64,000 nt of DNA from the NCBI GenBank assembly GCA_951812955.1, contig OX638340.1, forward strand, positions 3,488,001 through 3,552,000, written 5' to 3'. The notes beneath the pieces were generated by a model that did not search any database, was not told where the DNA came from, and was given only the letters and a program-made list of their open reading frames with translations. Below, piece by piece: positions 24,102-58,367 of the stretch (positions are counted from its first letter, which is position 1; each line of letters starts with the position of its first letter). The position numbers and the translations under genes were made by a program. Source of the DNA: an uncultured Gemmatimonadota bacterium (GTDB lineage: Bacteria; JAAXHH01).

Positions 24102-25250
24102 ATGATCAGACCGGGTAACAGGCTGCTGGTTTGGTTTCTGGTCTGCAGCTTCGTGTTTTTCGTTGTGGCAGTGATCGTGGAGGAGTTCGCGTTGTTCGAT
24201 TCCGAAGAGGAAATGCAGCGTGACGACGCATCTGGAGGCGTTTTTCAGCAAGAGGGCGCCGCGGATGGTCCGGTATCTGCAACCGCTTCGCGGATGGCGC
24301 GCGGTGACCATCCCGCGCTGACGAGCCGGCAATTGCGGCTGGTGTCGACGACGTGGCCGCCTTTCATCGACGCGCCTGGTAAACCACGGTTCGCCCTCGA
24401 ACTGGTCGACGCGGCCCTGGAACGCATGGGAATCGGCGCCCAGGCGATCGTTCTGGACGAGGGCGAGTTGTCGTCCGCGTTGCTGAACGGGGCGTTCGAC
24501 GGAAGCGCGGCGGTCTGGAAGGACGAAGCGCGCGAGGGTTCGATGCTTTACTCAAAGCCGTATCTCGAGAACCGATTGATACTCGTCGGCCGAGGAGGCA
24601 GTGACGTGTCCGCCACCTCGCTGTCCGGACTCGCAGGAATCAGGATCGCCCTGGCCGACGGGCACGCGTACGCCGAAATGGCAGAACAAACAGACGGGCC
24701 GGTTTTCATCCGCTCGGACAGCGATGAGGACAGCGTCGCCAAACTGCTCGACGGCGAGGTGGATTACGCGCTGATGGATGACCTGGTCGTCCAGTACCTC
24801 ATCAGCAAACACGGAGAAGAAGCGCGATCTCGGCTGGTGTTCGGTACGGCGCCTCTGCTCAACCGTTCGCTTCACCTCGCCGTCCGCCGGTCGCTTCCTG
24901 ACGCCGATTCGATCATCTCGCGATTCGACGCCGAGGTGCGTGCCATGATGGCCGACCGGACCTATCACCGCCTGCTCCTGCTCGACTGGATTCGAACGGA
25001 CGTCGATGGCGACGGTCTCGTGGAGAACCTGCCGCACGCTAATCGGACCGGTCCGGATCCGCCGGAGCACATCTACGAACTCTTCCTTTCGGGCGGTCCC
25101 TCCATGGAACCGGGTATGGCGCAGCGATTCTACCTGGACGGAGATATCTACGAAGATTGGTCGGCCGTGCCAGTACAGTACAAGACCTTGGACTCCGGCG
25201 GACCCGACCCCGATCCACGCACCGTCAACACATTCAGCTTCGTGTGGTAG
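24102..25250 (+). CDS. Membrane-anchored periplasmic solute-binding-like protein (SBP_bac_3-like) with a C-terminal extension
   Basis: GAGGAG SD and N-terminal TM LLVWFLVCSFVFFVVAVIV. The core LRLVSTTWPPFID...ALELVDAALERMGI...LLNGAFDGSAAVWKDEAREGSMLYSKPYLENRLILVGR...LLDGEVDYALMDD fits the family-3 binding-protein pattern. Confidence 0.6.
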   Translation: MIRPGNRLLVWFLVCSFVFFVVAVIVEEFALFDSEEEMQRDDASGGVFQQEGAADGPVSATASRMARGDHPALTSRQLRLVSTTWPPFIDAPGKPRFALELVDAALERMGIGAQAIVLDEGELSSALLNGAFDGSAAVWKDEAREGSMLYSKPYLENRLILVGRGGSDVSATSLSGLAGIRIALADGHAYAEMAEQTDGPVFIRSDSDEDSVAKLLDGEVDYALMDDLVVQYLISKHGEEARSRLVFGTAPLLNRSLHLAVRRSLPDADSIISRFDAEVRAMMADRTYHRLLLLDWIRTDVDGDGLVENLPHANRTGPDPPEHIYELFLSGGPSMEPGMAQRFYLDGDIYEDWSAVPVQYKTLDSGGPDPDPRTVNTFSFVW

Positions 25251-25296
25251 GCATGTGGATTCACCGCGCCCGCATCGCACGATTCCGAGGTGAATT

Positions 25297-26220
25297 ATGA
25301 AAGGAACTTCCCTGCTCGACCATATAATTGTGCGGCTCGTGGTCCACTATTTCGCTACATTCCTGTTTTTCGGGGGCCTGTTGGAGCTGCTGCCGGGGGT
25401 CTTTCTCGAACTGCAAGTGGCCGAGCGAATCGAGTCGAGCTCGCTCTCAGCCATGAATTTCGAACAAGCCGAGCCCGATACGGGACTGACCCAGGTGTTT
25501 ATACCAGTGACGATGTCGTTGTTGTTCTCCTTTCTTTTTACCCTGCCGGTGGTCTGGGTCTATCGCTGGACGCGGACCCGCAAGAAATACGACCAGGCCT
25601 TTGCCCAGACCCTCCTCGTCGTCCCCATTGCCATCGCGCTCGTCGTATTTCTCGTTAAGGACAGCATCGCCCTCGCCTTCAGTATCGCGGGCATAGTCGC
25701 CGCGGTACGCTTCCGCACGTCGTTGAACGAAACCATGGACGCCATCTATATGTTCATCGTAATCGGCATCGGGTTGGCCGCCGGGATCCAATACGGTTCA
25801 GTGGCCGTCCTGGCATCGGTGACTTTCAATGCCGTTGTGCTTGTCGTCTGGCGCATGAACTGGGGCGCGGAGCCCGTGGTCCTGGACGGATTCAGGCTGG
25901 TGCATTCGGACAATGGGCGTTCGATGATTGGTGCCGGCGATCCACGGACGGATAAGAAACCCAAGCCCTTTAACGCGAGGCTCAGGGTATTCACTTCGCG
26001 CGTCGGTTCGGCACAGCATGCCACCGAAGCAAACCTGCCGACCTATGCATCACGCTGGCAGCTCGCGCGAGTCGTGGAACGGGAAGGCGACGCTTCGATT
26101 GTGGAATTTGACGTTCGGCTCAAGAAAAAGGCGGATCCGGATGCCTTTACCGCGGCACTTGAAAGCATCACCATGGGACATATCCAGAAAGTGGAACTGG
26201 AAGAGCTACCCAGGTCCTGA
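25297..26220 (+). CDS. DUF4956-family membrane protein with a C-terminal soluble extension
   Basis: GAGGTG SD. Hallmark DUF4956-like stretch VVWVYRWTR...AFSIAGIVAAVRFRTSLNETMDAIYMFIVIGIGLAAGI with flanking TM helices. Confidence 0.75.
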   Translation: MKGTSLLDHIIVRLVVHYFATFLFFGGLLELLPGVFLELQVAERIESSSLSAMNFEQAEPDTGLTQVFIPVTMSLLFSFLFTLPVVWVYRWTRTRKKYDQAFAQTLLVVPIAIALVVFLVKDSIALAFSIAGIVAAVRFRTSLNETMDAIYMFIVIGIGLAAGIQYGSVAVLASVTFNAVVLVVWRMNWGAEPVVLDGFRLVHSDNGRSMIGAGDPRTDKKPKPFNARLRVFTSRVGSAQHATEANLPTYASRWQLARVVEREGDASIVEFDVRLKKKADPDAFTAALESITMGHIQKVELEELPRS

Positions 26221-26308
26221 GGAGATGCTGATTTTGAGCGCCGGAGATGCTGATTTTGAGCGCGGGAGATTTGGCCTATGAACGCCGGAGATATGGTCTA
26301 TGAGCGCC
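26221..26308 (+). repeat. 22-bp tandem repeat x4 spanning the intergenic spacer, SD and start codon of the next gene
   Basis: ggagatgctgattttgagcgcc / ggagatgctgattttgagcgcg / ggagatttggcctatgaacgcc / ggagatatggtctatgagcgcc. The ATG at 26300 lies in copy 4. Copy 3 carries an out-of-frame ATG at 26278. Confidence 0.9.
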
Positions 26309-27445
26309 ACGGGTAACAGACTGCTGTTGTCGTTTCTGATCTTCAGCATGTTGTTTTTTGCTGTGGCGCTGCTTGTGCGGAATGATCCGGAGCCTGATTC
26401 AGGAGTGGAAGAGCGCCAGGACGCACATCAGGACGTAGGTCAGGACGTGCGTCAGGTATCATCAGTCGTTGAGCCTGCGACGCAGGTCGCTGCCGTCGAT
26501 CCGCGGATTGGCGCCGAAGCCGGCTCCGTGATCCCTTCAGCGATTGATTCCGAAGCCGGCTCCGTGATCCCTTCCGCGATTGACTCCGAGGCCGAAGCCA
26601 CGGCCACGTCGGCATCCGCATACGCTTCCTCGACGGTGCGTAGGGACCGTCCCGTGGACCATTCTATCCTCGGAAGCTTCGATTTCGAAGAGCCGGCTAG
26701 ACATTTTAAGCTGCCGAAGCGGATACGGGAGATTTCCGGTCTGGCCATGCTCGCGGGGGATCGGCTTCTGGCCCACGACGACGAAAAAGGCGTGGTAGTA
26801 GAAATCGATCATCGCGACGGTTCGATCGTAAAGGATTTCAAACTCGGCGGTCCGCGTGGCCTGGTCGCCGACGACCTCGAAGGCATCGCCGCCGCCGATG
26901 GCAGCCTGTACCTTGTCTCGAGTTCGGGCCGGCTGTACGAGTTCGGCGAAGGCGCCGACGGAGCGACCGTTTTCTACAATCGGTACGAGACTGGCATTGG
27001 CCGATTTTACGAAATCGAGGGACTTGCATACGATCCGGATCAGCGTATGCTGTTGCTCGTCAGCAAGAACCCGAAAAACTCCGGGCAGGCGGACTTGATC
27101 GCGCTATACCGCTGGTCGCTTGATACCCGTCGGCTCGTCGAAGACGGACATACCTTCATTGAGACCTCCGCGCTCGCGCACCGTATCGGCCGCAAGAAGT
27201 TTCAGCCTTCCGGCATCGAACGGCATCCGGTATCGGGAAACTACATTGTCGTAGCGGCCCGCCAGCGCGCCGTTGCCGAGATTACCCCCCAGGGAACGGT
27301 CCTTGCCGTACGTGAGCTGAAGGCCGGCCGGCATCGGCAGGCCGAGGGCATCTCATTTGCTTCCGATCATACCATGGTCATAGCGGATGAAGGGGCGGGG
27401 AAGCGCGCGACCCTGAGTTTCTACCCCGTAGTAAAGGAAAGATAA
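26300..27445 (+). CDS. Secreted/anchored beta-propeller protein, SdiA-regulated (YjiK-like) family suspected
   Basis: N-terminal TM LLLSFLIFSMLFFAVALLV. In-frame 36-nt duplication (EAGSVIPSAIDS x2). The core ISGLAMLAGDRLLAHDDEKGVVVEIDHRDGSIVKDFKL...DLEGIAAADGSLYLVSSSGRLYEF resembles PF06977-type repeats. Confidence 0.5.
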   Translation: MSATGNRLLLSFLIFSMLFFAVALLVRNDPEPDSGVEERQDAHQDVGQDVRQVSSVVEPATQVAAVDPRIGAEAGSVIPSAIDSEAGSVIPSAIDSEAEATATSASAYASSTVRRDRPVDHSILGSFDFEEPARHFKLPKRIREISGLAMLAGDRLLAHDDEKGVVVEIDHRDGSIVKDFKLGGPRGLVADDLEGIAAADGSLYLVSSSGRLYEFGEGADGATVFYNRYETGIGRFYEIEGLAYDPDQRMLLLVSKNPKNSGQADLIALYRWSLDTRRLVEDGHTFIETSALAHRIGRKKFQPSGIERHPVSGNYIVVAARQRAVAEITPQGTVLAVRELKAGRHRQAEGISFASDHTMVIADEGAGKRATLSFYPVVKER

Positions 27446-28756
27446 TTGCGAGTTTCGGAAGGCGCGCGGCAGGATATTCGTCCGTCGATCGGGATTCCGC
27501 GGCTGTGCCGGCGTCGTACCGTAATACGAGAAAACAGTCCGGTCCGGCTGCAGGTCTCACGGCGCGTACCGGGATCGTGGCTCGTGCCGGGATCGTGGTT
27601 CTTGCCGGGATCGTGGTTCTTGCCGCTCGTTGTGCTGGCCGTGGTCCTTGCGGGTTGCCGGTCAGGTCGGCTGCTGGGGGAAAACTACGACGCCAGCGGG
27701 GACCCGTTTATCCTCAGGGCCGCCTCCGCGGAAGCCATAGCCGTTGGTCCGGCCGACACGTCCGGTGTCGCATATCGCGTCATCCTGGTCGGCGACACAG
27801 GGGAACCTGTCGAGGAGGATCCCACCCTTGCCGCGATCGGACGCTGGGCGGTTCCGCGCGACCGTGCCGCCGTCGTGTTGCTGGGCGACAATATCTATCC
27901 GTCGGGGCTGGAAGCACATGACAGGGTATGGGGCGAATCCATACTGAGGCAGCAACTCGAGACTACCTCGGCGCTTAGGGTTTTCGTGCCGGGCAATCAC
28001 GATTGGGGTTCCTCTCCGGGAGACTGGTCGGAAGATCGCGTCATTGCGCAACAAGAATTCGTACTGGCCTGGTCCGAGGGCGAAGTGGCCTTTCTACCCC
28101 GCGACGGATGTGCAGGTCCGGCGGTACGCGAACTGCTCCGTCCCGGGGACGGGATGGAACGGGGGATCGCGGTCGTCGCCATCGACTGGATGCCATGGTT
28201 TACTACGGCCGCGGACACGAGCGGATGCCCGCCGGGGGATTTCGGGAAACGGATAGACGACGCCTTCGCGGCGCTGACGAATCATTTCGTAATCGTGGCG
28301 AGTCATTACCCGCTACGATCGGGTGGCGCCCACGCCGGATTGGGCCGCGGACTGCTCATCGACACCCTCGTTAACATTTATCACCTGGTGCGGCCACGAT
28401 CGATCCTCAGGCTGTACCATCCGCGGTATGCGGAATTGGCAAGGCAGGTGAAAGACGCGCTCGAAAGACATCGTCCTCTCGTCTATGCCGCGGGCCACGA
28501 TCACAACTTGCAACTTTTCGAAGGGGATGAAACCGCCCTGATGCACGTCGTGAGCGGATCGGGATCCGCCGGGAAAGTGGAACGTGTGACCGCCGTGCCC
28601 GGGACGATTTTCGCGCACGCGGTTTCCGGATTCGTAGTGCTCGATTTCGTCACCCGCAACGGGATCGGCACCCCCGTAGTACGCGTCGTAAGAACGGAGC
28701 GGGAAACGCCCGTGTTCCAGATGCGCGTTCCGCTGCAGGACGACCGGGACCGGTAA
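27446..28756 (+). CDS. Calcineurin-like metallophosphoesterase, probable lipoprotein
   Basis: Motifs ILVGDTGEP, VVLLGDNIYPSGL, VPGNHDW, ASHYPLRSGGAHA and AAGHDHNLQLF. Lipobox LAVVLAGCRSG. The start is uncertain: TTG at 27446 directly after the previous stop, with alternative GTG/TTG codons inside the PGSW(L/F)(V/L) x3 repeat. Confidence 0.8.
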   Translation: MRVSEGARQDIRPSIGIPRLCRRRTVIRENSPVRLQVSRRVPGSWLVPGSWFLPGSWFLPLVVLAVVLAGCRSGRLLGENYDASGDPFILRAASAEAIAVGPADTSGVAYRVILVGDTGEPVEEDPTLAAIGRWAVPRDRAAVVLLGDNIYPSGLEAHDRVWGESILRQQLETTSALRVFVPGNHDWGSSPGDWSEDRVIAQQEFVLAWSEGEVAFLPRDGCAGPAVRELLRPGDGMERGIAVVAIDWMPWFTTAADTSGCPPGDFGKRIDDAFAALTNHFVIVASHYPLRSGGAHAGLGRGLLIDTLVNIYHLVRPRSILRLYHPRYAELARQVKDALERHRPLVYAAGHDHNLQLFEGDETALMHVVSGSGSAGKVERVTAVPGTIFAHAVSGFVVLDFVTRNGIGTPVVRVVRTERETPVFQMRVPLQDDRDR

Positions 28757-28829
28757 CCTGCCCATCCTTGTACGCCGCAACCACTGCTATCATGTGACGA
28801 AGCCCGTTGGGCAGACCACCCGCCCGCAT

Positions 28830-31580
28830 CTAGAACATGAACCCGACGAACAGATACTGGCCGATCTTGTCCTTGCCTTGCATCATCGCCACGCTCAACG
28901 TCGCACGCCGCTCGGCAAAGGAAACCCAGAGCCCGCCGCCCCTGGCGAAATGCCAGTCATCGGCCTCCCGGGGGTCGTCCGCAAAGAATACCCGTCCCGC
29001 GTCGACGGCGGCGAACACGCCGAGTTCACCGGGAACCAGGAACTTGATTCGAGTCAGCCGAAACCGGAACTCGCCGTTCCCGAATACCGCGGAATCCCCC
29101 GCAAATCGATACTTGAGGAATCCCCGCAGGTTGCCGGATCCCCCAATCGCGGCCGCTTCGTGGAAAGGGTACGCTCCAAGGACGGTTATGCCGCCCACGC
29201 GCAGGGCGAGGGTGGGGGAAGCGGGTACGTCAACTGACAGGTAGGTGGACGCCTCGCCGGCAACGTGGCCGAATACCGACTCCACGTCCCAAAGCGCAGG
29301 GTAGAGTTCGCCCGCGAGCCTTAACCGTACGCCCCGCATTGCATGGCCCGGATTGTCGCGGGTATCAAAATCGAGTTCTCCACGAACGCCGATCTGCCCG
29401 AAGCTTCCCGTCCCGTACAGTGGTGTTTCATAGGTGTTGATAAATTTGCCCTCGTTATTGTCCAACAAGGAGTTGGTTATCTTGACGATCGGTCCCCCCG
29501 CCAGATTCCACTTCCCATGAGTCGCCACGGAACCGGAGAAGGATAGCGCGGGCGCGAGAAAAAACTGCGCCTGATCCATCTCGTAGAACGGTTCGTCCTG
29601 CGCGAGGTCCACACCGTTGCCGAAGCCGTTGAAGCGAACCATGTTGATGCCGGAGTATCCCATGTCCAACTGACCGTCCAGGTTACGCAGCAAATGGCGG
29701 AACGTACCGGAATAGGAAACGAAGGGCTTTACTCCTCCCCGGGAGGCGATTCCGATGTCAATAGCATGCCGCGAGGCATACGGATCCTTTCGATAGCCAT
29801 AGTTTAACCGGTTGTAGCGCAGCCCCGTGTAAATCCCGGTATCAGAGGTATAGTTGACGATCGGCTTCGTGCCCGATACGGAGCCCCAGTCGAGTTTGTA
29901 CACGTCCTGCGAAATCGCGCTCTCGTTTCTTGGACGCCTGTACCGGCGCTCGTTGATATGCGCCCTGTTATCGTCGAAGCGGTTCTGCCCGCGCGCGTCG
30001 TAAAACCGCGTCATCCGCCGTCCGGACCGGGACCGGTTCGCGTAGGTGTCGTCACCGCCTCCACCGTCCACGTGAATCCTGATCCCGGCCCGCTCTCCGA
30101 TGACGGCGATCCGATCGTCCCCTCCATGCATGTAGATCCTGACTTCCTTTGTCTCGCGGGGATACAGGATACGGTGGAAGTAGGGGGCATTCTCCGTACC
30201 GGCCAGGCTGATACGAACTTCGAGCGCGCCGTCCTCCCGGTGTTCCAACTCGAGGTGTTCGTCCTCGTCCGTTCCCCTGATCTCGACCTTCCTGCTGATC
30301 AAGCCGTAGTACCGCGCCGCGAACTCGCCGAGTCGATCCCGGCGTACCTTCAACGTCCGGGTAAGGAAGTCCCCCACCTGCCGGTAGTACGGGTCCGGTA
30401 GCCGCCGGACGGCATCCTCGATCACCGGGTTCGACAATTCGGACTGGACCGTGGCGACCACCGCGTCCCACGCGCTCCACTCCAGTTCCGCCAGCAGCCT
30501 GCGGTCCAGTTCCCAGCCCGTGCGGGAGAGTCCCAGATGGTTTGGAAACTTCACCTGAAAGCGGACGAACTTGGGTTCGATACGGCGCACCAGTTTCATC
30601 AATTGGCCATCCAGATCGATAAACGCCTTGTCTCTGTCTTCGGGGACGGGCAACCACGTGTAGCAGTCCCCGACCGGAAACTGCGCCCAGCGCCATTGTC
30701 CCCGGTGCCGGTCCGAATCGCCGATGAGAAAATCGATGAGCCGCGCCTTGAGATAGGCCCGCGCGTCCACGCTTTCGCAGGGCGTCTCCTCGAGGCGTTC
30801 GTACAGTCTCTCCGAGCCGCTCACCCTGCGGGACCCGGCAAACCCCGGCTCGTTACCGGCGGCCTCGGACGGATGTTCCTGCAGGGTACCTATCAGTCCG
30901 GCATATTCCTCGCGAAACGATCCCAGCCTGGGATCATCGGGTATCACCAATAGCTTGTGCGGCGCGTGCAGAATGCCCGTTGCCTCCATCAGAGCATCCA
31001 CCACAAGGCCCGCCGCCGGCAGATGGGCGCTCACGAGATCCTGGATCACGTCCTCGACGACGGTGTCCTTGAGCTCCTCCAACAGCCGCTTGGACGGATC
31101 CTTGTCGATGGAGCGCACCGTGTAACGGCGGCCGTCATTGCCAATAAAGTGCAATGAAATGGACTGGCCGGCGCCGCCCGGCCGCATGGGCGACAATCCG
31201 CCGCCAACTTCATCGAGATCGAGGACCGGAAGCTCGACCGGTGTCGTCCAAAGCTGCCGGTAGTTTTTGCCATAAACCCACTGTCCGTAACTACTTGCCC
31301 TGAATCTTCCTCCCGGTACGGCCGTATGCGTCGAGTCGCCCATCTCGGGGATTGAACGGTGAATCAACTGACCAGCCCGGTTCGCCTCGCTTGCTTGGCC
31401 TTCTTGACCTGCCTGGCCTGGCTGATCTGCTTGATCTGTCTGGCCTGTCTGACCTGCCTGCCCTTCCTGGCCTGCCTGCGCCGCTGCCGAATCAGTACCC
31501 GCAAAAGACAGAACGATTACAGGGAGAGCAATGATCCACCAAAACTTGCAGGGATGGAACAAGCGCACGTTGAGGTTCAT
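28830..31580 (-). CDS. Omp85/BamA-TamA-family outer-membrane protein with an atypical N-terminal region
   Basis: ATG at 31580 after AGGAGA. Signal MNLNVRLFHPCKFWWIIALPVIVLSFAGTDSAAAQ, then a GQ-rich low-complexity tract (AGQEGQAGQTGQTDQADQPGQAGQEGQ). The C-terminal ~350 aa are beta-barrel-like and end ...YLFVGFMF (aromatic terminus). Confidence 0.7.
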   Translation of the reverse strand: MNLNVRLFHPCKFWWIIALPVIVLSFAGTDSAAAQAGQEGQAGQTGQTDQADQPGQAGQEGQASEANRAGQLIHRSIPEMGDSTHTAVPGGRFRASSYGQWVYGKNYRQLWTTPVELPVLDLDEVGGGLSPMRPGGAGQSISLHFIGNDGRRYTVRSIDKDPSKRLLEELKDTVVEDVIQDLVSAHLPAAGLVVDALMEATGILHAPHKLLVIPDDPRLGSFREEYAGLIGTLQEHPSEAAGNEPGFAGSRRVSGSERLYERLEETPCESVDARAYLKARLIDFLIGDSDRHRGQWRWAQFPVGDCYTWLPVPEDRDKAFIDLDGQLMKLVRRIEPKFVRFQVKFPNHLGLSRTGWELDRRLLAELEWSAWDAVVATVQSELSNPVIEDAVRRLPDPYYRQVGDFLTRTLKVRRDRLGEFAARYYGLISRKVEIRGTDEDEHLELEHREDGALEVRISLAGTENAPYFHRILYPRETKEVRIYMHGGDDRIAVIGERAGIRIHVDGGGGDDTYANRSRSGRRMTRFYDARGQNRFDDNRAHINERRYRRPRNESAISQDVYKLDWGSVSGTKPIVNYTSDTGIYTGLRYNRLNYGYRKDPYASRHAIDIGIASRGGVKPFVSYSGTFRHLLRNLDGQLDMGYSGINMVRFNGFGNGVDLAQDEPFYEMDQAQFFLAPALSFSGSVATHGKWNLAGGPIVKITNSLLDNNEGKFINTYETPLYGTGSFGQIGVRGELDFDTRDNPGHAMRGVRLRLAGELYPALWDVESVFGHVAGEASTYLSVDVPASPTLALRVGGITVLGAYPFHEAAAIGGSGNLRGFLKYRFAGDSAVFGNGEFRFRLTRIKFLVPGELGVFAAVDAGRVFFADDPREADDWHFARGGGLWVSFAERRATLSVAMMQGKDKIGQYLFVGFMF

Positions 31581-31811
31581 TTCAGTCTCCTGGTCTATAC
31601 CTTCAAATAGGCTGGATCCAGTTAACATGAATGATCTATGATTCTTGTAGCGTTACGTCCTTACAGTAGTTTAACGTCGACAGGCAACACAGGGAAGTGT
31701 TACTTACAAGCGTACCACAAACACAACATTTTATGAAGACCGGATGAGGTTTGTCGCGCCGATGAGCGGTCTCATGCCCACCTGGCCGCAGGATACGGTG
31801 AAACTTGACCG

Positions 31812-36433: not shown

Positions 36434-36643
36434 TTGTTTACAATATAATCATATTTAATTCTTATAATTTCACATTTAAGCCACGAGTTATTGATCTTAG
36501 ATTTGATAAGTTAAGACTCCAGCGTTAGTATTATGTTGAAAAATCCAGTTTGATTCACATATTGAATTTATCAATCTCTGAAACAACTGACCCGTTCGTT
36601 TGTGAATACAGGGGCAGCATTTTCTTCCAAAGAATGTACCTCG

Positions 36644-38980
36644 ATGACTTTCGAGTTCCGACTTACGTCACGGCGTTTGGGACGCTTCCTCGTCCTGCTG
36701 CTCGCCTGCCTTGCCCTTCCTTTGCTCGTCACGTGCGGCAGGGACACTCCCACGCAGTCACGGACCGCGGTCCCGGCGCGGGTAGTGGTCACGCCTGTGG
36801 CCACGGATCTGGCATCGGCAGGACAGACTGTGCGACTCAACGCCCGGGCGCTTGACGACGCCGGCCAAGAAGTCTCGGAGGCTCCTGTTGCCTGGCGCAG
36901 CACCGACGCGTCGGTGGCGCGCGTGAGCGCGGACGGCGTGGTCACCGCCGTGGGGGAAGGCAGCGCCCTCATAACGGCCATGGCCGGCCAGAAGACGGCT
37001 CAAGCGAAGGTGACGGTGGCGGACCCGGTGCGCGCGGCGCTGCGGGCGCTGTACGAGGCGACGGGCGGGGCGAACTGGAAGAACAGCGACAACTGGCTGA
37101 GCGCCCGGCCCGTTGGCGATTGGTACGGGGTAATCGGCGAGCCATCCGGACCGAGCGGGATTTCGCAACGGAGAACCAGCGCCGGCGGACTGACGCGCCT
37201 GGACCTGTCCGGCAACGGATTGACGGGCGAGATCCCTCCCGTGCTGGGCAGCCTGGCCGGTCTTCGTTATCTGGACCTTTCCGACAACGCGCTGTCCGGC
37301 GCGATCCCTCCTGCGCTGGGCAACCTGTCGTCCCTCGAGACGCTGAAGCTGCACGATAACCGGTTGTCGGGCGAGATCCCTTCGGAACTGGGCAACCTGG
37401 AAAGTCTCCGGGAGCTGTCTCTGCACGGCAACGGGCAACTGACCGGTGCGTTGCCCCTTTCGCTCGCCAACCTGGACCGTCTGGAAACGTTATCCCTTTC
37501 GGGTACGCAGTTGTGCGCGCCGACCGATGCCGCGTTTCAGAACTGGCTGCAAGGAATCGCGAACAGGACCGGCATCTTCAATTGCGGCAACGATACGGAC
37601 GGCGACCGGAACGTGCTGCTCGCCCTGTACAACGCGACGGACGGTCCCAACTGGACGACCCGTACGAACTGGCTGAGCACCCGTCCCCTGTCGTCCTGGC
37701 ACGGGGTGGGCGTGAACGCCGCAGGGCGCGTCGACAGCCTGATCCTCGAAGACAACGCGCTGGCCGGACCGATCCCCGCCAGCCTGGGCAGTCTCGCCGG
37801 CCTCGTGGCGCTGGACGCGAGTGGCAACCAGTTGTCCGGCAGCATCCCGGAGGAGCTGGGCGATCTCTCCGGTCTGGTTACGCTTGATCTCAGCAACAAC
37901 GCGTTGACCGGACCGATCCCGCCGGCGTTGTTCAGCCTGCCCAATCTCGTTACGCTGGAGCTCTCCGGCAATCGGTTTACGGATATCCCGGATACAGACA
38001 TCCCGGATACAGGCACCCCGGTCCTGACGGATCGGGATGTGCTGGTTGCGCTCTACAACGCCACGGACGGCGAGAACTGGACGAACAACACCAACTGGCT
38101 GAGCGACAGGCCGCTAGGGGAATGGCACGGGGTTCGCGTCAATGCGGAGGGGCGCGTCGAAGGACTGGACCTTAGCGCTAACCAGCTATCGGGCCCGATC
38201 CCGACCGAACTCGCAAGCCTCACCAAGTTGACACATCTGTATCTTTACGATAACCAGCTATCGGGCCCGATCCCGGCAGAAATCGCAAGCCTCACCAATT
38301 TGACAGAGCTGGACCTTAGCGAGAACCAGCTATCTGGCCCGATCCCGTCCGAACTCGGCAGCCTCACCAAGTTGGAAGATCTGTGGCTTTTCGGTAATCA
38401 GCTATCGGGTCCCCTGCCCGGAACGTTCACCGGTCTGACAAACTTGGAAAGACTGTCCATCGAAGGAACCGGGTTGTGCGCGCCGACGGACGCGGCCTTC
38501 CAGGCGTGGTTGAGGGGAGTCGATGACAAATCTGGAGTGGTCAACTGTGCCGGCTCAAGCCCAGACCTGATCGTCGCATCGCCATCGGTAAGCGACGACA
38601 CCCTGACGACGGGGCAGTCTTTCACGCTGAGCGCGTCGGTGCGCAACCAGGGCACGGGGCGGTCAGCCTCGACGATCCTGCGCTATTACCGGTCTTCGAA
38701 TTCGACCATCTCATCGTCCGATACGCAGGTCGGCACGGACGCCGTGAGCGCACTGGCCGCATCGGGAACGAGCGCTGAATCGATCAGCCTGTCCGCGCCT
38801 TCGAGCGTCGGGACGTACTACTACGGCGCGTGCGTGGACGAGGTAAGCGGCGAGAGCGATACGGGCAACAACTGCTCTACGGGCGTGCGCGTCACGGTGA
38901 TGGTCGAGGATGACCACGGCGATACTCGGTCTGGAGCGACATCCCCTCGCGCTGAGCGGTTCGGTCTCGGGACGGATTGA
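36644..38980 (+). CDS. Lipoprotein: Big_2, three LRR modules and one CARDB domain. Reading frame broken by a 1-nt frameshift near 38943-38946
   Basis: The ATG at 36644 aligns with the start of paralog 2537. Lipobox LPLLVTCGRDTPTQS. About 65-70% aa identity by eye to 2537-9769 over the first ~200 aa. CARDB-like stretch PDLIVASPSVSDDTLTTGQSFTLSASVRNQG...GTYYYGACVDEVSGESDTGNNCS. The tail after DDHGDTRSGATS is out of frame. Confidence 0.85.
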   Translation: MTFEFRLTSRRLGRFLVLLLACLALPLLVTCGRDTPTQSRTAVPARVVVTPVATDLASAGQTVRLNARALDDAGQEVSEAPVAWRSTDASVARVSADGVVTAVGEGSALITAMAGQKTAQAKVTVADPVRAALRALYEATGGANWKNSDNWLSARPVGDWYGVIGEPSGPSGISQRRTSAGGLTRLDLSGNGLTGEIPPVLGSLAGLRYLDLSDNALSGAIPPALGNLSSLETLKLHDNRLSGEIPSELGNLESLRELSLHGNGQLTGALPLSLANLDRLETLSLSGTQLCAPTDAAFQNWLQGIANRTGIFNCGNDTDGDRNVLLALYNATDGPNWTTRTNWLSTRPLSSWHGVGVNAAGRVDSLILEDNALAGPIPASLGSLAGLVALDASGNQLSGSIPEELGDLSGLVTLDLSNNALTGPIPPALFSLPNLVTLELSGNRFTDIPDTDIPDTGTPVLTDRDVLVALYNATDGENWTNNTNWLSDRPLGEWHGVRVNAEGRVEGLDLSANQLSGPIPTELASLTKLTHLYLYDNQLSGPIPAEIASLTNLTELDLSENQLSGPIPSELGSLTKLEDLWLFGNQLSGPLPGTFTGLTNLERLSIEGTGLCAPTDAAFQAWLRGVDDKSGVVNCAGSSPDLIVASPSVSDDTLTTGQSFTLSASVRNQGTGRSASTILRYYRSSNSTISSSDTQVGTDAVSALAASGTSAESISLSAPSSVGTYYYGACVDEVSGESDTGNNCSTGVRVTVMVEDDHGDTRSGATSPRAERFGLGTD

Positions 38981-41082: not shown

Positions 41083-44000
41083 ATGCCAATATCATACAGG
41101 CTGAGTACAATTTTCAATTTTCATTTCTTTTATAGCGTCGTCGCGGTGCTGTCATTCTTCGTACTGGTTACCTGTGGCAAGGACAGTCCGACCCAACCCA
41201 GGCCGCCAAGTCAACCGCCGGTCCAACCACCCACGCCGGTCCAGCCACCTCCTGCTCCGCAACCCTCTCGCATCACCATCACGCCATCCTTGGTGAATCT
41301 CATGGCGATCGGTCAGACGACGCAGCTCACGGCCTCGGTCCTTGATCAGAACGGGCAGCCAGTTCCCGGCGCGGTCGTTGCATGGTCCAGCAGCGATGAG
41401 GATGTCGCCACCGTGAGCGGCCAGGGGTTGGTAACCGCGGTCAGCAACGGTACGGCCACGATCACCGCCATGGCGGGAAGCGTGTCGGCGACCGCCAGCG
41501 TGCGGGTCTCCCAGACCGCTGGCAGCGTCAAGATCGATCCGGACATGGCCACCCTGATGGCCATTGGGGAAACAGCGCAGCTCACGGCCGTGGTACTCGA
41601 CCAGAACGGGCAGCCAGTTCCCGGCGCGGTCGTTGCATGGTCCAGCAGCGATGAGGATGTCGCCACCGTGAGCGGCCAGGGGTTGGTAACCGCGCTCAGC
41701 AACGGTACGGCCACGATCACCGCCATGGCGGGAAGCGTGTCGGATTCTGCTTTGGTCACGGTCCTCGTTCCCAGAACGGACCGGGATGTTCTGATTGCCT
41801 TCTACGAGAGCACTGGTGGTGAGCAATGGACGGTCAGGTCAAACTGGCTTAGCGTACATCCTCTTGAAACGTGGCTTGGCGTGACCGTCAACTCGGAAGG
41901 CCTGGTAACGGAGATCGACTTGCCGAACAACAATTTGCGCGGACCGCTCACGTCCGAGTTAGGTTATCTGGAAGAGCTCGCGACGCTCCGTCTGAACCAT
42001 AACCAGTTAACGGGTCACATTCCTCCGGAACTCGGCCGACTGGCGAAACTGCGTCACCTGGTGTTGTCCAGCAACCAATTGACCGGAGTGATTCCGACGG
42101 GACTCGGTCAATTAACCGGATTAGAGGAACTGTTGCTGTCCTTCAACCGTCTTTCAGGATCCATACCGGGGGAACTGGGTGACCTGAAGGGACTCAAGAG
42201 GCTGTCGCTTTCAGTCAATGAACTGGATGGACCGGTCCCGGCAGAATTGGGACGACTAAAACAACTGACATCGTTGCGGCTGGACCAGAATCGGTTGTCC
42301 GGGTCAATCCCGCTACACCTTGGCGGGATGACGGTTTTGCGGTCAATGGTACTCGCCGACAATCAGTTAACAGGTGCAATACCAGCCCACCTGTCCTCGT
42401 TGGATAATCTCGAAGAACTGGTGCTGGATCACAACAGACTGGAGGGCGGCATACCCTCACAGTTGTACCGACTTGCCAATCTGAAACGGCTTGGACTCGC
42501 CGGCAACCGGTTATCCGGCGGCGTGCCGGCGTTCTTGGGCAGACTCACCAACCTTACGCACCTGCATCTGTTCTCGAATCGCGGTCTTTCCGGTGTCCTG
42601 CCGCGTTCATTCACCGGTCTTCAACTGGAAGAACTGTTGCTTGAAGGCACGCAGCTTTGCGTACCGCCGGATGACGATTACGAGGCATGGTTGGACCAGA
42701 TTCCAGTGAAGACGGTAACGACCTGCTCCAACCTGGAGTCCAGCGTGTTGGCAACGCTGTACAACGCAACGAATGGAATAAACTGGGCGGATAACACGAA
42801 TTGGCTGAGCGACCGGCCATTGGGTACATGGTATGGCGTGACCACGGACGCCGATGGCTACGTGACGGGTATCGATCTTACGAACAACAATCTGAACGGG
42901 TCCGTACCGGGTGAACTGGCTGGCCTTTCGAAGCTCAAATCGCTGAATCTCAGTACCAACGGTTTTTTGAGAGGGCAGTTACCCCGGGAACTCATCAATC
43001 TTGAACTTCGGGAACTGCTGCTGGAAGACACCCGGTTGTGCGCGCCGCCGGACGCCGAATTCCAGGACTGGCTTCAGACCATTCCGGCAAGAAGCGTATC
43101 CACATGTGATGATCTTGATCTCAATTCGCTTAAGGCCCTGTTCGCGCTCTTCAACGACACGAACGGTCCGGGCTGGCATGACCGGACAAACTGGAACAGT
43201 GATGCGCCGCTGGAGGAATGGTACGGCATCACGGTAGACGAGGACGGCAGGATAACCGAACTGAATCTTGCCGGCAACAATCTCAGCGGCTCGCTCCCCG
43301 CTGACCTGGCAGCACTAACGGAACTGGAACGGCTCGATTTCAGCGACAACGAAGGGCTGACGGGCCCGCTACCGCACGAATGGACAGCACTGACCCTCGA
43401 GTATCTGCGGGTGGAAGGAACGCAGTTGTGCGCTCCACCGGATACCGGGTTTCAGGCCTGGTTGAACGAAATCCCCGAGTACGGCATACCGGAATGTACC
43501 GATACCAGGCCGGACTGGGCTGATACCAATCCTGAATGGGATGTCCTCGAACTCTTGTATAATAGTACGAACGGGAAGGACTGGACGAACAATGAGAACT
43601 GGTTAAGCGAAGCGCCCTTGGATCAGTGGTACGGCATAAAGACGGACGAGGAAGGAAGAGTGACTGAACTTAATCTGGAAGACAACAACCTGTCTGGCGA
43701 ACTACCCCCAAGACTGGGAGATCTAATCGGACTCACGTCGCTGGAACTTTCGTTTAATAAACTTTCGGGTTCAATTCCCGCTGAACTCGGACAGTTGACA
43801 GCCCTTGAAACTTTGTTTCTGGACGATAACGCCCTTTCGGGTCCGATACCCGCCGAACTCGGACAATTTTCCGGCCTGCGAAGATTGGATCTGGGCTGGA
43901 ACGATCTCTCTGGCGTGATTCCCGCTGAACTCAGGCAGTTGACGGGCCTTACCTCGCTCGGTCTGCGCTTCAACAACCTTTCGGGCGTGATTCCCGCTTT

Positions 44001-46063: not shown

Positions 46064-49000
46064 ATGATTCGACATACAAGACTCACATCGATGACGGTCA
46101 TCATGTTGCTGGCGCTGCCGATCCTGGTCAGGTGCGGCAGGGACAGCCCGACTAAGCCACAGCCGCCGACACCTGCGAGGATCACGGTCACGCCGCAGTC
46201 GCCGACCCCGACGGCTGCAGAACAGATTTCAACACGCGATGACTTGGTTAAGGACGAAAGCGGCGCGGAGATCGCCGATGCAGTTTCGGACAGGGCGGCG
46301 CTGATCGCACTGTATAACGCCACGAACGGTCAGCACTGGACGAACAATAGGAACTGGCTGAGCGAGGCGCCTTTAGGGCAATGGCATGGCGTGACGACCG
46401 ACGAGAATGGGCGGGTACAGCGGTTGAAACTGTTTCAAAACAACCTTTATGGACCTGTTCCAGCCGAGTTGGGAAGTTTGGAAAAGCTCGTTCAGATAGA
46501 TTTTGGGGCAAACAGGCTAAATGGCGTCATACCACCCGAACTGGGAAGTTTAAGCAAACTTGGAGATCTGGGGCTGGGTTATAATAACCTTTCGGGCGCC
46601 ATACCACCCGAACTGGGCAAATTGAGTAACCTTAGTTGGCTGTATCTGGCTGCCAATAACCTTTCGGGCGCCATCCCCGACGAACTGGGCAATCTGGTTA
46701 TAATGCGGTATATGAGTTTTAATAACAACCCCGGCCTGTACGGAACGCTGCCGCTGACTTTCACCAACCTTACTTCTCTGGAATCTCTGTACATAGGTGG
46801 CACGAAGATCTGCGCCCCGCCGACGCCCGAGATGGAGGCGTGGATAGCCACTGTTCCAGATCATGATGTCGCCACCACCTGCGCCGACCTGGATATCGAA
46901 GCGTTGACGGGGTTGTTTAACTCGACTGGCGGGTCGGACTGGACAAACAAAGAGAACTGGCTGAGCGATGCGCCTTTGAGCGACTGGTACGGCATAACGA
47001 CGAATGAAATCGGGCGAGTCAAGGGGCTTAGTCTACCAAATAACAACATGCGCGGGGTGTTGCCTCCGGAGATCGTGGATCTGGCCGCCCTGAGGAATCT
47101 GAACCTGTCTCTCAACGAGGGATTGGCCGGATCATTGCCCTTGAGATTCACCACGCTGAGTCTGGAGTCACTGCGTCTCGAAGGGACGCACGTTTGCGCA
47201 TCCCGGGACGCAAGCTTCCAGGATTGGTTAAATGGCATTCCGAATCGGTCCGTCGCAGACTGTGCCGAACTGGATACGGACGCGCTGGTTGCCCTGATCG
47301 GATTGTACGCGTCCACGGGCGGCAAGAACTGGACGAACAACGAGAACTGGCTGAGCCAGTCTCCCCTGTCCTGGTGGTACGGGGTGACCGTTGATGCCAA
47401 CGGCCGGGTAACTGAGCTGGACTTGTCCGATAACAATCTGAGCGGTGCTCTGCCCGCAAGTATGGGCAAACTGGTGGATTTGAAACTAATCGACCTGGGG
47501 GGCAATACCGGGCTCGTTGGACCACTGCCGGAATCGCTTACCGGGCTTCCAATTGAATCACTTAATCTTGAGGGCACCGGACTGTGCGCGCCTGCCGATT
47601 CAGGCTTCCGGTCCTGGCTAAACGGTATTGGTGGCACGTCCGGTGTCGACGACTGTGCGGAAGATCTTCCGGATTGGCAAGCGCTGGTTACTTTTTACAA
47701 TGAAACAAATGGATCGAACTGGGAGGACAATACCAACTGGCTGAGCGCCGAACCGCTGGATGAATGGTTTGGCGTGTCCACGGACGCTAGCGGACGGGTG
47801 ACTGCTCTGGAGCTTGCCTGGAACAACCTTTTGGGGCCGTTACCTGCCGCCCTGAGTCGTCTGGACAAGCTTGAACGCCTGAATTTAGGAGCAAACGAAC
47901 TGTCCGGCCCTATCCCACCCGATCTGGGCAAGCTGGAAAACCTTCGAGTACTGAATCTGTTCTTTTGTTGGATTTCGGGAACGATACCGCCCGAACTGGG
48001 GAGGTTGACCAATCTTGAAATACTTGATCTCAGTGCGAATGGCAGGACGCTAACCGGCACGCTGCCCGTGGAGCTTGGGAAGCTGGCCAAACTCAAAGTC
48101 CTGGATCTCGGTGGTAACGGTCTGTACGGGCCCATACCGGAAGAGTTGAGCCGTTTGGCGGAGCTCGAGGTCCTGGATCTGCGATGGAACGGTTTTTCTG
48201 GGTCAATTCCCAGAGTATTTGGAAAACTGGCCAATCTCACAGTGTTGCGTCTCAACGGAAACAAGGTGTCGGGCGGGATACCGAGGGAGTTGGGGCTGTT
48301 GTCCGAAATTGAAATTTTGGATATGGGCCGTAATGGCCTGGCGGGGCCGGTACCCGGGGAGTTCGAAAATCTGACCAATCTGAGTGGCTTAAACTTAAGT
48401 AGAAACAATCTGTCCGGCTCGATCCCCGCTGAATTGAGTCATATGAACGCACTGGAGACATTGGATCTTTCATACAATAAACTAACTGCTTCGGTACCTG
48501 GTGGACTGGGTAGGTTGGCCAATTTAAGAGAACTGGTATTGGCCGGAAACACCGGAATGGCCGGACCGTTGCCGGCTGAATTCGTAGAGCTGAATCTCGA
48601 AACGCTCATGTTGGGTGATACCGGGCTCTGCGCGCCACGGGACGCCGAATTTCAGAGCTGGCTTCGTTTCGTTCAGAACAGCCGGGTGACTCCGTGTGCC
48701 GTCCCGGTGGAGGCAACGGCCTACCTGACCCAGGCGAGTCAGTCCCTGGACCATCCCGTCCCCCTGGTCGCGGGCGAAGACGCGCTGTTGCGGGTTTTCC
48801 TGAAGGCCGACGGGGAAACCGACATCCCCATCCCTCCGGTCCGGGCTTCGTTCTATCAAGGCGGCGGGGTTGTCTATATTGCTGATGCACCGGGCGAGGC
48901 TTCGGACGTACCGGCTTCCTTCGAGGAAGAGACACTGACCGCCACGGCCAACGTACGCGTACCGGGTTCTGTAGTGATACCGGGTGTCGAGTTGGTGGTC

Positions 49001-58267: not shown

Positions 58268-58367
58268 GTGCAGTGTGGAACTTGATTCGAGCGGCCTGGC
58301 GGACCTGAATGAACCTGTGCCGCCGGGTTCCGGTCCGCCGCCGAGCCTGGCGGCTCCCGCTCCGGGC

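What the first reader, a model, noticed from the sequence alone, without database searches (positions are those of the whole stretch)
24102..31580. Envelope gene cluster of unclear joint function
Four co-directional genes with short or zero spacers run from 24102 to 28756: a TM-anchored SBP-like protein, a DUF4956 membrane protein, an SdiA-regulated-like propeller and a lipoprotein metallophosphoesterase. They face a 916-aa Omp85-family protein. Its N-terminal ~550 aa show no obvious POTRA pattern and begin with a GQ-rich tract. Metallophosphoesterase/Omp85 pairs recur in FCB-group genomes. DUF4956 is usually seen with VTC-type polyphosphate enzymes, which are absent here, although PPK2 lies 26 kb away. 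The combination hints at a phosphate or outer-membrane-lipid related module, but nothing in the sequence proves a functional link.
Basis: inference. Interest (0 to 1): 0.3.

Follow-up and report, generated by a model that had tools for sequence, protein, structure and literature searches.

The report
Outer-membrane kinase module linked to polyphosphate
The gene cluster is real and conserved: it is built around a previously undescribed outer-membrane protein carrying a kinase-like enzyme domain, and in related bacteria the same genes sit in one operon with the enzyme that makes polyphosphate.

Summary
All five genes are present as described, in a Gemmatimonadota-type genome. In 110 related loci, homologues of B (DUF4956), C (propeller) and D (metallophosphoesterase) lie within 4 kb of the Omp85 gene E 121 times, against twice further away. 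They occur in more than 20 gene orders. Co-directional neighbouring genes are a median 3.5 nt apart. A (SBP-like) occurs only in the closest relatives.

In at least 20 of 80 metagenomic loci a CYTH–PPK1 polyphosphate kinase sits beside E on the same strand. This looks like the diderm counterpart of the uncharacterised Gram-positive CotH–VTC–DUF4956 cluster.

Best reading: an envelope phosphoryl-transfer module coupled to polyphosphate. The substrate, the phosphoryl donor and the topology are inferred, not shown. The window itself has no adjacent PPK1.

The parts
24102..25250 (+). A: membrane-anchored periplasmic SBP_bac_3 (Venus-flytrap) protein. It is a lineage-specific accessory gene.
   Evidence: Pfam SBP_bac_3, E 4e-7. 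The closest solved relatives are the BvgS sensor VFT domains and amino-acid binding proteins. There is a single N-terminal hydrophobic segment. A homologue lies next to B only in the closest relatives: L002-L008, L011, L022 and L029. No ABC transporter genes are in the cluster.
25297..26220 (+). B: DUF4956 multi-pass inner-membrane protein with a C-terminal soluble alpha/beta (ACT/ferredoxin-like) domain.
   Evidence: Pfam DUF4956, E 3e-14. Hydrophobic segments lie at about aa 6-39, 63-89, 99-137 and 146-187. Seventeen diverse homologues keep an 'AAVRFRxxL' motif, with F139 and R140 invariant, and the C-terminal domain. B lies next to E in 42 of 110 loci.
26300..27445 (+). C: membrane-anchored beta-propeller (SdiA-regulated / phytase-like).
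   Evidence: Pfam SdiA-regulated, E 1e-7, and Phytase-like, E 4e-6. There is an N-terminal anchor. C lies next to E in 36 loci. Its anchor is homologous to that of A.
27446..28756 (+). D: lipoprotein metallophosphoesterase of the purple-acid-phosphatase type.
   Evidence: Pfam Metallophos. The weak solved-structure matches are all purple acid phosphatases / TRAP. The GDxG, GDxxY, GNHD, H287 and GHxH blocks are invariant in 18 diverse homologues. There is an LAGC lipobox. D lies next to E in 42 loci. The true start codon is uncertain, because more distant homologues align only from about aa 61-71 onwards.
28830..31580 (-). E: 916-aa outer-membrane protein made of a signal peptide, a GQ-rich linker, an atypical kinase domain, an all-beta domain and an Omp85 barrel.
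   Evidence: A 100 % identical 916-aa database protein exists. The AlphaFold2 model has mean pLDDT 89.5 and pTM 0.86. The family has 2938 cluster representatives at E <= 1e-3. Most of the 150 listed are about 820-970 aa, and roughly a fifth are shorter (268-663 aa).
31371..31580 (-). E, aa 1-70: signal peptide and disordered GQ-rich tract.
   Evidence: A hydrophobic segment covers aa 10-34 and the GQ repeats follow it. pLDDT is below 50 for aa 1-60. The tract is absent from most homologues, which are 883 aa and align from about aa 61-73.
30291..31331 (-). E, aa 84-430: atypical protein-kinase-like domain (CotH / PI4K type II / CtkA-like) with a helical extension.
29946..30290 (-). E, aa 431-545: all-beta linker domain with GGDD / GGGGDD motifs. 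It occupies the position where Omp85 proteins normally carry POTRA domains.
   Evidence: DSSP on the model shows only short strands between aa 431 and 545 and no helices. The conserved motifs are G486 G487 D489 and G506 G507 G509 D511. No POTRA hit was found.
28833..29882 (-). E, aa 567-916: 16-stranded Omp85-type beta-barrel.

Best explanation
B, C, D and E form a conserved envelope phosphoryl-transfer module. A is a lineage-specific add-on.

E is an Omp85-type barrel. By analogy with PlpD, it acts as an outer-membrane scaffold that holds a catalytically intact atypical kinase (CotH / PI4K-II / CtkA-like) on the periplasmic face.

B, the DUF4956 inner-membrane protein, is the kinase's constant partner. 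In Gram-positives the same family sits with a secreted CotH kinase and a VTC-type polyphosphate polymerase. In soil and sediment relatives of this locus it sits in one operon with D, E and a CYTH-PPK1 polyphosphate kinase.

Proposed mechanism:
- Polyphosphate made in the cytoplasm is handed to or through B.
- It then supplies phosphoryl groups, or a polyphosphate substrate, to the E kinase domain in the ATP-free periplasm.
- The kinase phosphorylates an envelope target (protein, lipid or glycan, not yet known).
- The lipoprotein purple-acid-type phosphatase D and the phytase-like propeller C remove or recycle those phosphates.

Shown here: the gene linkage, the kinase fold with invariant putative catalytic residues, the Omp85 barrel, the intact phosphatase motifs, and the PPK1 co-operon in relatives.

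Inferred: the periplasmic orientation, polyphosphate passage through B, polyphosphate as donor, and the substrate.
For: Linkage:
- B/C/D homologues lie within 4 kb of E 121 times and beyond 4 kb twice, over 594 kb and 481 kb of DNA.
- More than 20 distinct gene orders and both orientations occur, with a median gap of 3.5 nt between co-directional neighbouring genes.
- Among loci with at least 1.5 kb of DNA on each side of E, 23 of 25 genome loci and 26 of 33 metagenome loci carry at least one partner.
- The same neighbours are recovered when starting from B homologues.

Kinase domain:
- The domain model has pLDDT 90.7.
- D288, D290, R291, Q/N295, D315, D317, R156 and K160 are invariant or nearly so in 174 sequences reaching down to about 33 % identity.

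Phosphatase: all five purple-acid-phosphatase blocks are invariant.

Polyphosphate link:
- A CYTH+PPK1 protein of about 1060 aa lies 3 nt downstream of E in B-D-E operons.
- PPK1 lies beside E on the same strand in at least 20 of 80 metagenome loci and in L015.
- DUF4956 clusters with CotH and a VTC-like polyphosphate polymerase in Gram-positives (papers 10.1101/768473 and 10.1101/2024.04.20.589940).

Topology precedent: the enzyme domain of PlpD is periplasmic (PMC11116518).
Against: - The window itself, and all but one (L015) of the 30 genome-collection loci, which are the closest relatives sampled, have no PPK1 or VTC gene next to the module. The PPK2 26 kb away shows no conserved linkage; a PPK2 lay beside E in only one locus (L062). 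For this genome the polyphosphate link therefore rests on relatives whose E is about 40 % identical and on the general behaviour of DUF4956.
- No member of the E or B families has been studied experimentally.
- No HMM detects CotH, so the kinase relationship is at fold level only.
- The beta-3 position carries an invariant Arg (R156) rather than the usual Lys, so nucleotide binding cannot be assumed.
- About a fifth of well-flanked metagenomic loci have E with none of the partners (example).
- The orientation of the kinase domain could not be read from model coordinates with these tools.
Confidence: 0.45

Rival explanations
1. The module is a polyphosphate export or envelope turnover system. 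PPK1 makes polyphosphate and B moves it across the inner membrane. E binds or conducts it at the outer membrane, and its kinase-like domain acts as a polyphosphate-binding or polyphosphate-processing module rather than as a kinase of other targets. D and C trim or recycle the polyphosphate for phosphate storage, metal binding or a surface coat.
For: PPK1 is co-operonic with B, D and E. DUF4956 associates with polyphosphate polymerases. Several basic residues are invariant in E: R156, K160, R291, R413 and R414. D is an intact phosphatase of a type that, from general knowledge of purple acid phosphatases, also cleaves phosphoanhydrides.
Against: The strict invariance of a complete kinase-type catalytic loop and of the metal-binding DRD motif argues for phosphotransfer chemistry rather than simple binding. 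Known Omp85 barrels handle polypeptides or act as anchors and are not known to conduct anionic polymers. The window has no adjacent PPK1.
Confidence: 0.2
2. The module runs an outer-membrane lipid or LPS phosphorylation cycle that does not depend on polyphosphate. E is a PI4K-like lipid or glycolipid kinase acting on the inner leaflet of the outer membrane. D and C are the opposing phosphatases. B is a membrane partner or regulator.
Against: This reading explains neither the recurrent PPK1 co-operon nor the source of phosphoryl groups in the periplasm. The fold matches to protein kinases (CotH, CtkA) are equally strong.
Confidence: 0.2
3. E is a type Vd-like autotransporter that displays or releases its kinase domain at the cell surface. 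There it phosphorylates host (for example sponge) or matrix proteins, as the secreted kinases CtkA, CotH and Fam20 do.
For: The best fold matches include kinases that are secreted or extracytoplasmic from general knowledge: CtkA, CotH and Fam20/Golgi casein kinase. The closest genomes are sponge-type MAGs rich in LRR surface proteins. The architecture, an enzyme domain N-terminal to an Omp85 barrel, resembles PlpD.
Against: The PlpD passenger has since been shown to be periplasmic (PMC11116518). The family is abundant in soil and sediment metagenomes that have no host. The partners B, C and D carry inner-membrane-type anchors or a lipobox, which points to the periplasm. E has no POTRA domain.
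Confidence: 0.1
4. There is no joint function. The genes are neighbours by chance or shared descent, and E is simply a BamA/TamA paralogue for outer-membrane protein assembly.
For: Sources annotate E homologues as 'BamA/TamA family outer membrane protein'. The flanking genes (RidA-like, CxxCxxCC and others) are syntenic only in close relatives.
Against: The association survives extensive rearrangement in relatives down to about 40 % identity, with a 121 to 2 near/far contrast. E lacks POTRA and carries a conserved kinase domain instead.
Confidence: 0.03

Closest known systems
Gram-positive CotH - VTC-like polyphosphate polymerase - DUF4956 accessory cluster (next to pel operons in streptococci, clostridia and bifidobacteria)
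   Same: It has the same three functional types: an extracytoplasmic atypical kinase of CotH-like fold, a DUF4956 multi-pass membrane protein with a C-terminal ACT-like domain, and a polyphosphate-synthesising enzyme with a CYTH/triphosphate-tunnel domain. Its function is likewise unknown.
   Different: Here the kinase is fused to an Omp85 barrel in a diderm and is not detected by the CotH Pfam model. The polyphosphate enzyme in relatives is a CYTH-PPK1 fusion rather than a VTC polymerase, and it is absent from this window. Purple-acid-type phosphatase and propeller genes are added. There is no pel operon.
PlpD / patatin-Omp85 family (formerly 'type Vd secretion')
   Same: An enzyme domain lies N-terminal to a 16-stranded Omp85 barrel. 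The barrel most likely serves as an outer-membrane scaffold for a periplasmic enzyme (PMC11116518). A PlpD-like gene lies directly beside E in some relatives.
   Different: The enzyme is a kinase-like domain, not a patatin lipase. An all-beta GGDD-rich domain replaces the POTRA domain.
BamA / TamA / Sam50 (core Omp85 assembly factors)
   Different: E has no POTRA domains and no evidence of an assembly role. It carries a roughly 500-aa enzymatic N-terminus. It is not among the ten Omp85/TpsB subfamilies catalogued in PMC4104836.
CotH, CtkA and PI4K type II atypical kinases
   Same: The bilobal kinase fold matches. The catalytic loop is D-x-D-R-H-x-x-Q/N, followed by a beta-hairpin and a D-R-D-x-A-F metal-binding motif in the DFG position.
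   Different: Sequence identity is 10-14 % and there is no HMM-level relationship. An invariant Arg sits in strand beta-3. The domain is fused to an outer-membrane barrel.
Eukaryotic VTC complex (polyphosphate synthesis coupled to membrane translocation)
   Same: There is a conceptual parallel. A CYTH-tunnel-containing polyphosphate synthase is genetically coupled to a multi-pass membrane protein, which suggests synthesis coupled to transit.
   Different: No homology between DUF4956 and the VTC transmembrane domain was tested or shown. The catalytic enzyme is PPK1.

Membership tests
Omp85 superfamily | 16-stranded C-terminal beta-barrel | tested here: met
Omp85 superfamily | Conserved loop-6 (V/L)RG(F/Y) motif | tested here: met
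   The window sequence reads NLRGF. R819 is present in 166/174 and G820 in 158/174 sequences.
Omp85 superfamily | [quoted passage not shown] | tested here: not met
   No POTRA Pfam hit was found in E or in 52 family members. The segment before the barrel (aa 431-545) is all-beta and lacks the two POTRA helices.
CotH kinase family (PF08757) | Match to the family HMM | tested here: not met
   No CotH hit at E <= 1 in any of 52 members. No CotH chain was found by profile search of PDB sequences.
CotH kinase family (PF08757) | CotH-type atypical kinase fold | tested here: met
Protein-kinase-like superfamily | Catalytic-loop Asp and Asn/Gln, plus a metal-binding Asp in the DFG-equivalent position | tested here: met
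   D288, D315 and D317 are present in 174/174 sequences, D290 in 173/174, and position 295 is Q in 162 and N in 12. Their positions after helix aa 273-285, and flanking the beta-hairpin aa 296-313, fit the kinase topology.
Protein-kinase-like superfamily | ATP-binding Lys in strand beta-3 paired with an acidic residue of helix C | tested here: inconclusive
   Strand beta-3 (YTVRS) carries an invariant R156, and an invariant K160 follows four residues later. No residue-level superposition was available.
DUF4956 (PF16316) | Match above the Pfam gathering score | tested here: met
   53.5 bits against a cut-off of 30.6. All 120 listed homologues carry PF16316.
CotH-VTC-DUF4956 cluster | A polyphosphate polymerase gene in the same cluster | tested here: not met
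   None lies in window 24102-31580. Relatives carry CYTH-PPK1 instead.
Purple-acid-phosphatase-type metallophosphoesterase | Five motif blocks: GDxG, GDxxY, GNH(D/E), VxxH, GHxH | tested here: met
   G116-D117-x-G119, G147-D148-x-x-Y151, G183-N184-H185, H287 and G350-H351-x-H353 are invariant in 18 homologues, and D186 is nearly invariant. The weak PDB hits are to purple acid phosphatases.
SdiA-regulated / phytase-like beta-propeller | Match above the Pfam gathering score | tested here: met
   SdiA-regulated scores 32 bits against a cut-off of 21. Phytase-like scores 27.4 against 27.6, marginally below. No solved relative is detectable by sequence.
ABC-transporter substrate-binding protein (SBP_bac_3) | Adjacent permease and ATPase genes | tested here: not met
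   The domain is present, but no ABC genes lie in the cluster. The best solved match is the sensor BvgS VFT domain.
Type Vd autotransporter | Passenger translocated to the cell surface | not testable with these tools
   This needs topology experiments. The prototype PlpD was itself shown to be periplasmic (PMC11116518).

The most novel reading that the evidence does not exclude
The module is a polyphosphate-powered extracytoplasmic phosphorylation system. Cytoplasmic PPK1 (or a VTC polymerase in monoderms) feeds polyphosphate through the DUF4956 membrane protein. A CotH-type kinase, anchored in diderms to the outer membrane by an Omp85 barrel, uses the polyphosphate instead of ATP as its phosphoryl donor. 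This would explain how kinases can work outside the cytoplasm, where there is no ATP, and it would give DUF4956 and bacterial VTC/CotH clusters a function.
Probability: 0.2. Interest if true: 0.85.

Novelty: new variant of a known kind. Interest (0 to 1): 0.62.

Why it matters
- Omp85 proteins are thought of as protein-assembly or secretion machines. A large family (about 2900 clusters at 50 % identity) that fuses the barrel to an intact kinase-like enzyme extends the recent PlpD finding that the barrel can serve as an outer-membrane scaffold for periplasmic enzymes.
- The conserved pairing with DUF4956, and in many lineages with PPK1, ties together three poorly understood items: DUF4956, the non-sporulation roles of CotH-type kinases, and envelope-associated polyphosphate. 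It yields directly testable hypotheses about how phosphorylation could be driven in the ATP-free periplasm.
- The lineages involved (Gemmatimonadota, Latescibacterota, KSB1 and sponge symbionts) are mostly uncultured, so this module is unlikely to be found by genetics soon.

Tried and rejected
- Sequence searches of the E N-terminus against PDB, both as a single sequence and as a 70-sequence profile, found nothing outside the barrel. Pfam scans of 52 members also found nothing for the N-terminus. Only structure prediction followed by a fold search identified it.
- NCBIfam added nothing useful. Rfam found no RNA element in the window.
- An exact-sequence look-up of the window's own E protein found no record.
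- My iterated HMM for A drifted on to C ORFs, because A and C share a homologous membrane anchor. Those 'A' hits were discarded, and A was scored from tblastn only.
- The AFDB50 fold library was unavailable.
- The consensus promoter and terminator scan gave nothing beyond background in the D/E convergent gap.
- One E homologue, P0125, has none of the partner genes, which shows that the linkage is frequent but not obligatory.
- The B homologue search returned only relatives at 47 % identity or more, so the Gram-positive triad could not be reached directly. That link rests on two papers.
- I considered that the PPK2 at 57.4 kb belongs to the module and rejected it. A PPK2 lay beside E in only one of 110 loci (L062).

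Full report
**1. What is in the window**

Six-frame ORF listing confirms four co-directional genes on the plus strand:
- A, 24102-25250
- B, 25297-26220
- C, 26300-27445
- D, 27446-28756

The spacers are 46, 79 and 0 nt. E lies on the minus strand and converges on D with a 73-nt gap. The mechanical ORF for E is 932 aa (28830-31628).

Pfam supports every domain call above the gathering score: SBP_bac_3 (A), DUF4956 (B), SdiA-regulated with a near-threshold Phytase-like match (C), Metallophos (D) and Omp85 (E). The Omp85 match covers only the last third of E.

Other features:
- A and C each have one N-terminal membrane anchor.
- B has about five or six hydrophobic segments.
- D has an LAGC lipobox.
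- E has a signal peptide followed by a GQ-rich tract.

Named database homologues are from Gemmatimonadota MAGs. The nearest genome loci are sponge-type MAGs labelled Gemmatimonadetes, Latescibacterota or KSB1. GC content is uniform across the cluster, and no Rfam element is present.

**2. Is the linkage conserved?**

I fetched 30 loci from the one-genome-per-species collection, using the N-terminal region of E. I fetched 80 more from metagenomes, using an alignment of that region. In the second set E is only about 36-59 % identical to the query.

tblastn with the window proteins and iterated HMMs over all ORFs give the same picture.
- The closest relatives keep A-B-C-D converging on E, exactly as in the window.
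- Relatives at about 52-55 % identity have E-B-C co-directional with gaps of 0-72 nt, and lack A and D.
- The metagenomic set shows B-D-E, B-C-D-E, C-D-E, D-E, B-E, C-E, E-D, E-C-D and E-B-C-D.
- There are more than 20 arrangements in total. The median gap between co-directional neighbouring genes is 3.5 nt, and 126 of 140 gaps are 100 nt or less.

B/C/D homologues occur 121 times within 4 kb of E (594 kb of DNA) and twice in the remaining 481 kb of the same loci.

Among loci with at least 1.5 kb on both sides of E, 23 of 25 genome loci and 26 of 33 metagenome loci carry at least one partner.

Two look-ups that started from B homologues, with independent gene calls and precomputed Pfam hits, again gave Omp85/DUF4956/SdiA-regulated in one case. 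The other gave DUF4956/SdiA-regulated/Metallophos converging on Omp85.

The flanking genes of the window are syntenic only in the closest relatives. The same holds for A. The conserved module is therefore E plus B, C and D in variable combinations. A is lineage-specific.

**3. What E is**

The N-terminal region has no detectable sequence relative of known structure or family, yet it defines a very large family. There are 2938 cluster representatives at E <= 1e-3. Most of the 150 listed are about 820-970 aa; roughly a fifth are shorter.

AlphaFold2 with a 70-sequence alignment gives a confident full-length model (pLDDT 89.5, pTM 0.86). The N-terminal region modelled alone scores pLDDT 90.7.

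Fold searches of the N-terminal model:
- Foldseek independently ranks CtkA, CotH and PI4K-IIalpha first.

The secondary structure follows the kinase order. Strand beta-1 is followed by the Gly-rich loop (GGAGQS), strands beta-2 and beta-3, helices, the loop D288-S-D290-R-H-R-G-Q295, a beta-hairpin and then D315-R-D317-K-A-F.

Conservation in 174 full-length family members down to about 33 % identity:
- R156, K160, D288, R291, D315, D317, R413 and R414 are invariant.
- D290 is present in 173 of 174.
- Position 295 is always Q or N.

This pattern argues for an active enzyme rather than a pseudokinase. The invariant Arg in strand beta-3, where kinases normally carry Lys, leaves the nature of the phosphoryl donor open.

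Residues 431-545 form an all-beta domain rich in GGDD and GGGGDD motifs. There is no POTRA domain.

The ten-subfamily catalogue of Omp85/TpsB proteins contains no kinase-type member (PMC4104836). No paper in the searchable library mentions Omp85 together with CotH.

**4. The partners**

- **D** carries all five purple-acid-phosphatase blocks, including the GDxxY tyrosine. They are invariant in 18 homologues spanning 19-69 % identity. Its only solved-structure matches are purple acid phosphatases. Its consensus N-terminus has a lipobox.
- **B** matches DUF4956. Its family keeps an AAVRFRxxL loop motif and a C-terminal alpha/beta domain. This fits the published description of the streptococcal homologue as a four-TM protein with a cytoplasmic ACT domain (10.1101/2024.04.20.589940).
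- **C** is a membrane-anchored propeller of the SdiA-regulated / phytase-like type, with no solved relative detectable by sequence.
- **A** resembles Venus-flytrap sensor or binding domains and has no ABC partners.

**5. The polyphosphate connection**

An unbiased clustering of all ORFs within 5 kb of E recovered B, C and D. It also recovered a new recurrent neighbour of about 1060 aa lying 3 nt downstream of E in B-D-E operons. Pfam identifies it as a complete PPK1 (N, middle, C1 and C2 domains, E 1e-28 to 3e-68) with an N-terminal CYTH domain.

A targeted search finds this PPK1 beside E on the same strand in at least 20 of the 80 metagenomic loci. A PPK1 hit whose match begins only at the PPK1 core, on an ORF that runs to the locus end, lies after E-E-B-C in genome locus L015.

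The literature reports DUF4956 in a contiguous accessory set with a CotH-like kinase and a VTC-like polyphosphate polymerase, next to Gram-positive pel operons. No function has been assigned (10.1101/768473 = PMC7112168; 10.1101/2024.04.20.589940).

The locus studied here therefore has the same three ingredients in diderm form:
- a CotH-fold kinase, now tethered to the outer membrane by an Omp85 barrel;
- DUF4956;
- in many relatives, a polyphosphate synthase with a CYTH domain.

The window itself lacks an adjacent PPK1. Its PPK2 at 57431-58267 is not conserved next to the module; a PPK2 lay beside E in one locus only (L062).

**6. Most likely mechanism**

Three observations are taken together. 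A kinase sits in or facing a compartment without ATP. Its constant inner-membrane partner travels, in other bacteria, with polyphosphate polymerases. Two periplasmic phosphoesterases accompany them.

I therefore propose an envelope phosphoryl-transfer cycle coupled to polyphosphate. Polyphosphate made in the cytoplasm is presented to or passed through B. The E kinase domain transfers phosphate to an envelope target. D and C remove or recycle it.

The periplasmic orientation follows from barrel topology and from the experimental finding that the enzyme domain of PlpD is periplasmic (PMC11116518). The orientation, the donor and the substrate are inferences.

Rival readings and the reasons they rank lower:
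- Polyphosphate export or turnover. This does not account for the intact kinase-type catalytic motifs.
- A lipid or LPS kinase/phosphatase cycle. It is supported by the PI4K-II match and by a PlpD-like gene directly upstream of E in Latescibacterota-labelled loci. It does not explain the PPK1 co-operon.
- A surface-displayed host-directed kinase. The family is abundant in soil and sediment metagenomes that have no host.
- Chance synteny, or a role as a BamA paralogue. This is effectively excluded.

**7. Comparison and novelty**

E belongs to the Omp85 superfamily by its barrel and loop-6 motif, but it fails the POTRA criterion. It resembles CotH, CtkA and PI4K-II in fold and probably works like them, but it is not a member of PF08757 by HMM.

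The module parallels the Gram-positive CotH-VTC-DUF4956 cluster and the PlpD scaffold principle. I classify it as a new variant of known kinds. It is an undescribed kinase-Omp85 architecture set in a conserved, polyphosphate-linked operon. Its function has not been tested anywhere.

**8. Caveats**

- All functional statements rest on gene context, predicted structure and motif conservation.
- ORF calls in the fetched loci are mechanical, and some start codons are over-extended.
- The loci were selected through E, so the frequencies describe partners given E, not the reverse.
- The Gram-positive triad was not re-derived here.
- About a fifth of well-flanked loci have E alone.

Noticed in passing
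window 24102-24248 and 26300-26443: A and C share a homologous N-terminal membrane anchor (aa 1-49, 45 % identity, E 6e-6; M..GNRLL..FL..S..FF.VA), although their soluble domains are unrelated. This may be a common docking helix for the same membrane partner.
   Followed up: partly
L014, L016-L019, L023, L025, L027 (for example L019:7557-9839): In Latescibacterota-labelled genomes a patatin-Omp85 (PlpD-like) gene lies 50-63 nt upstream of E on the same strand. In L014, L018, L025 and L027 a further Omp85-like ORF of about 480 aa lies a few kb upstream. In seven of these eight loci a sulfatase gene follows C about 20-75 nt downstream; in L016 it is further away. Several Omp85-scaffold genes are therefore clustered.
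   Followed up: partly
L042, L043, L044, L064, L067 (for example L067:738-3338): Large Ser/Thr protein kinases (Pkinase + TPR, about 880 aa) are transcribed divergently just upstream of the B(-D)-E-PPK1 operons. Adenylate/guanylate-cyclase-domain proteins flank C-E type loci (L072, L087, L096, L107). They may be regulators.
   Followed up: partly
L011:17214-19976 and L029:16188-21529: Some genomes carry a second, diverged E paralogue (about 52 % identity) next to the first. It is co-directional with its own A-B-C set or with the shared one. L015 and L020 have two E genes in tandem.
   Followed up: no
window 57431-60140: A PPK2 polyphosphate kinase (E 6e-105) lies next to a type I phosphodiesterase/nucleotide pyrophosphatase gene on the opposite strand. 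This is a separate phosphate-related pair with no conserved link to the module.
   Followed up: partly
window 31371-31475 (E aa 36-70): The GQ-rich tract (AGQEGQAGQTGQTDQADQPGQAGQEGQ) is absent from most homologues, which are 883 aa, and is modelled as disordered. It is a lineage-specific low-complexity linker after the signal peptide. It gives a weak spurious match to collagen-like SclB.
   Followed up: partly
window 20382-22145 (-), 36602-38980 (+); also 2537-9769, 14815-20364, 41083-46005, 46064-50176: There are several LRR / Big_2 / CARDB surface-type proteins and four giant ORFs (1370-2410 aa). Together with the sponge-MAG provenance of the nearest loci, this suggests a host-associated lifestyle. 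They were not examined.
   Followed up: no
window 23601-24101: A 501-nt intergenic region upstream of A has markedly lower GC (about 0.45-0.49 against about 0.60). It presumably holds the promoter and regulatory region of the A-D operon. No Rfam element was found, and the only sigma-70-like matches are 9/12 matches to the consensus.
   Followed up: partly
window 27446: The stop codon of C abuts the first possible start of D (TTG) with 0 nt between them. More distant D homologues align only from about aa 61-71, just before the lipobox, so the real D start may lie further downstream.
   Followed up: no
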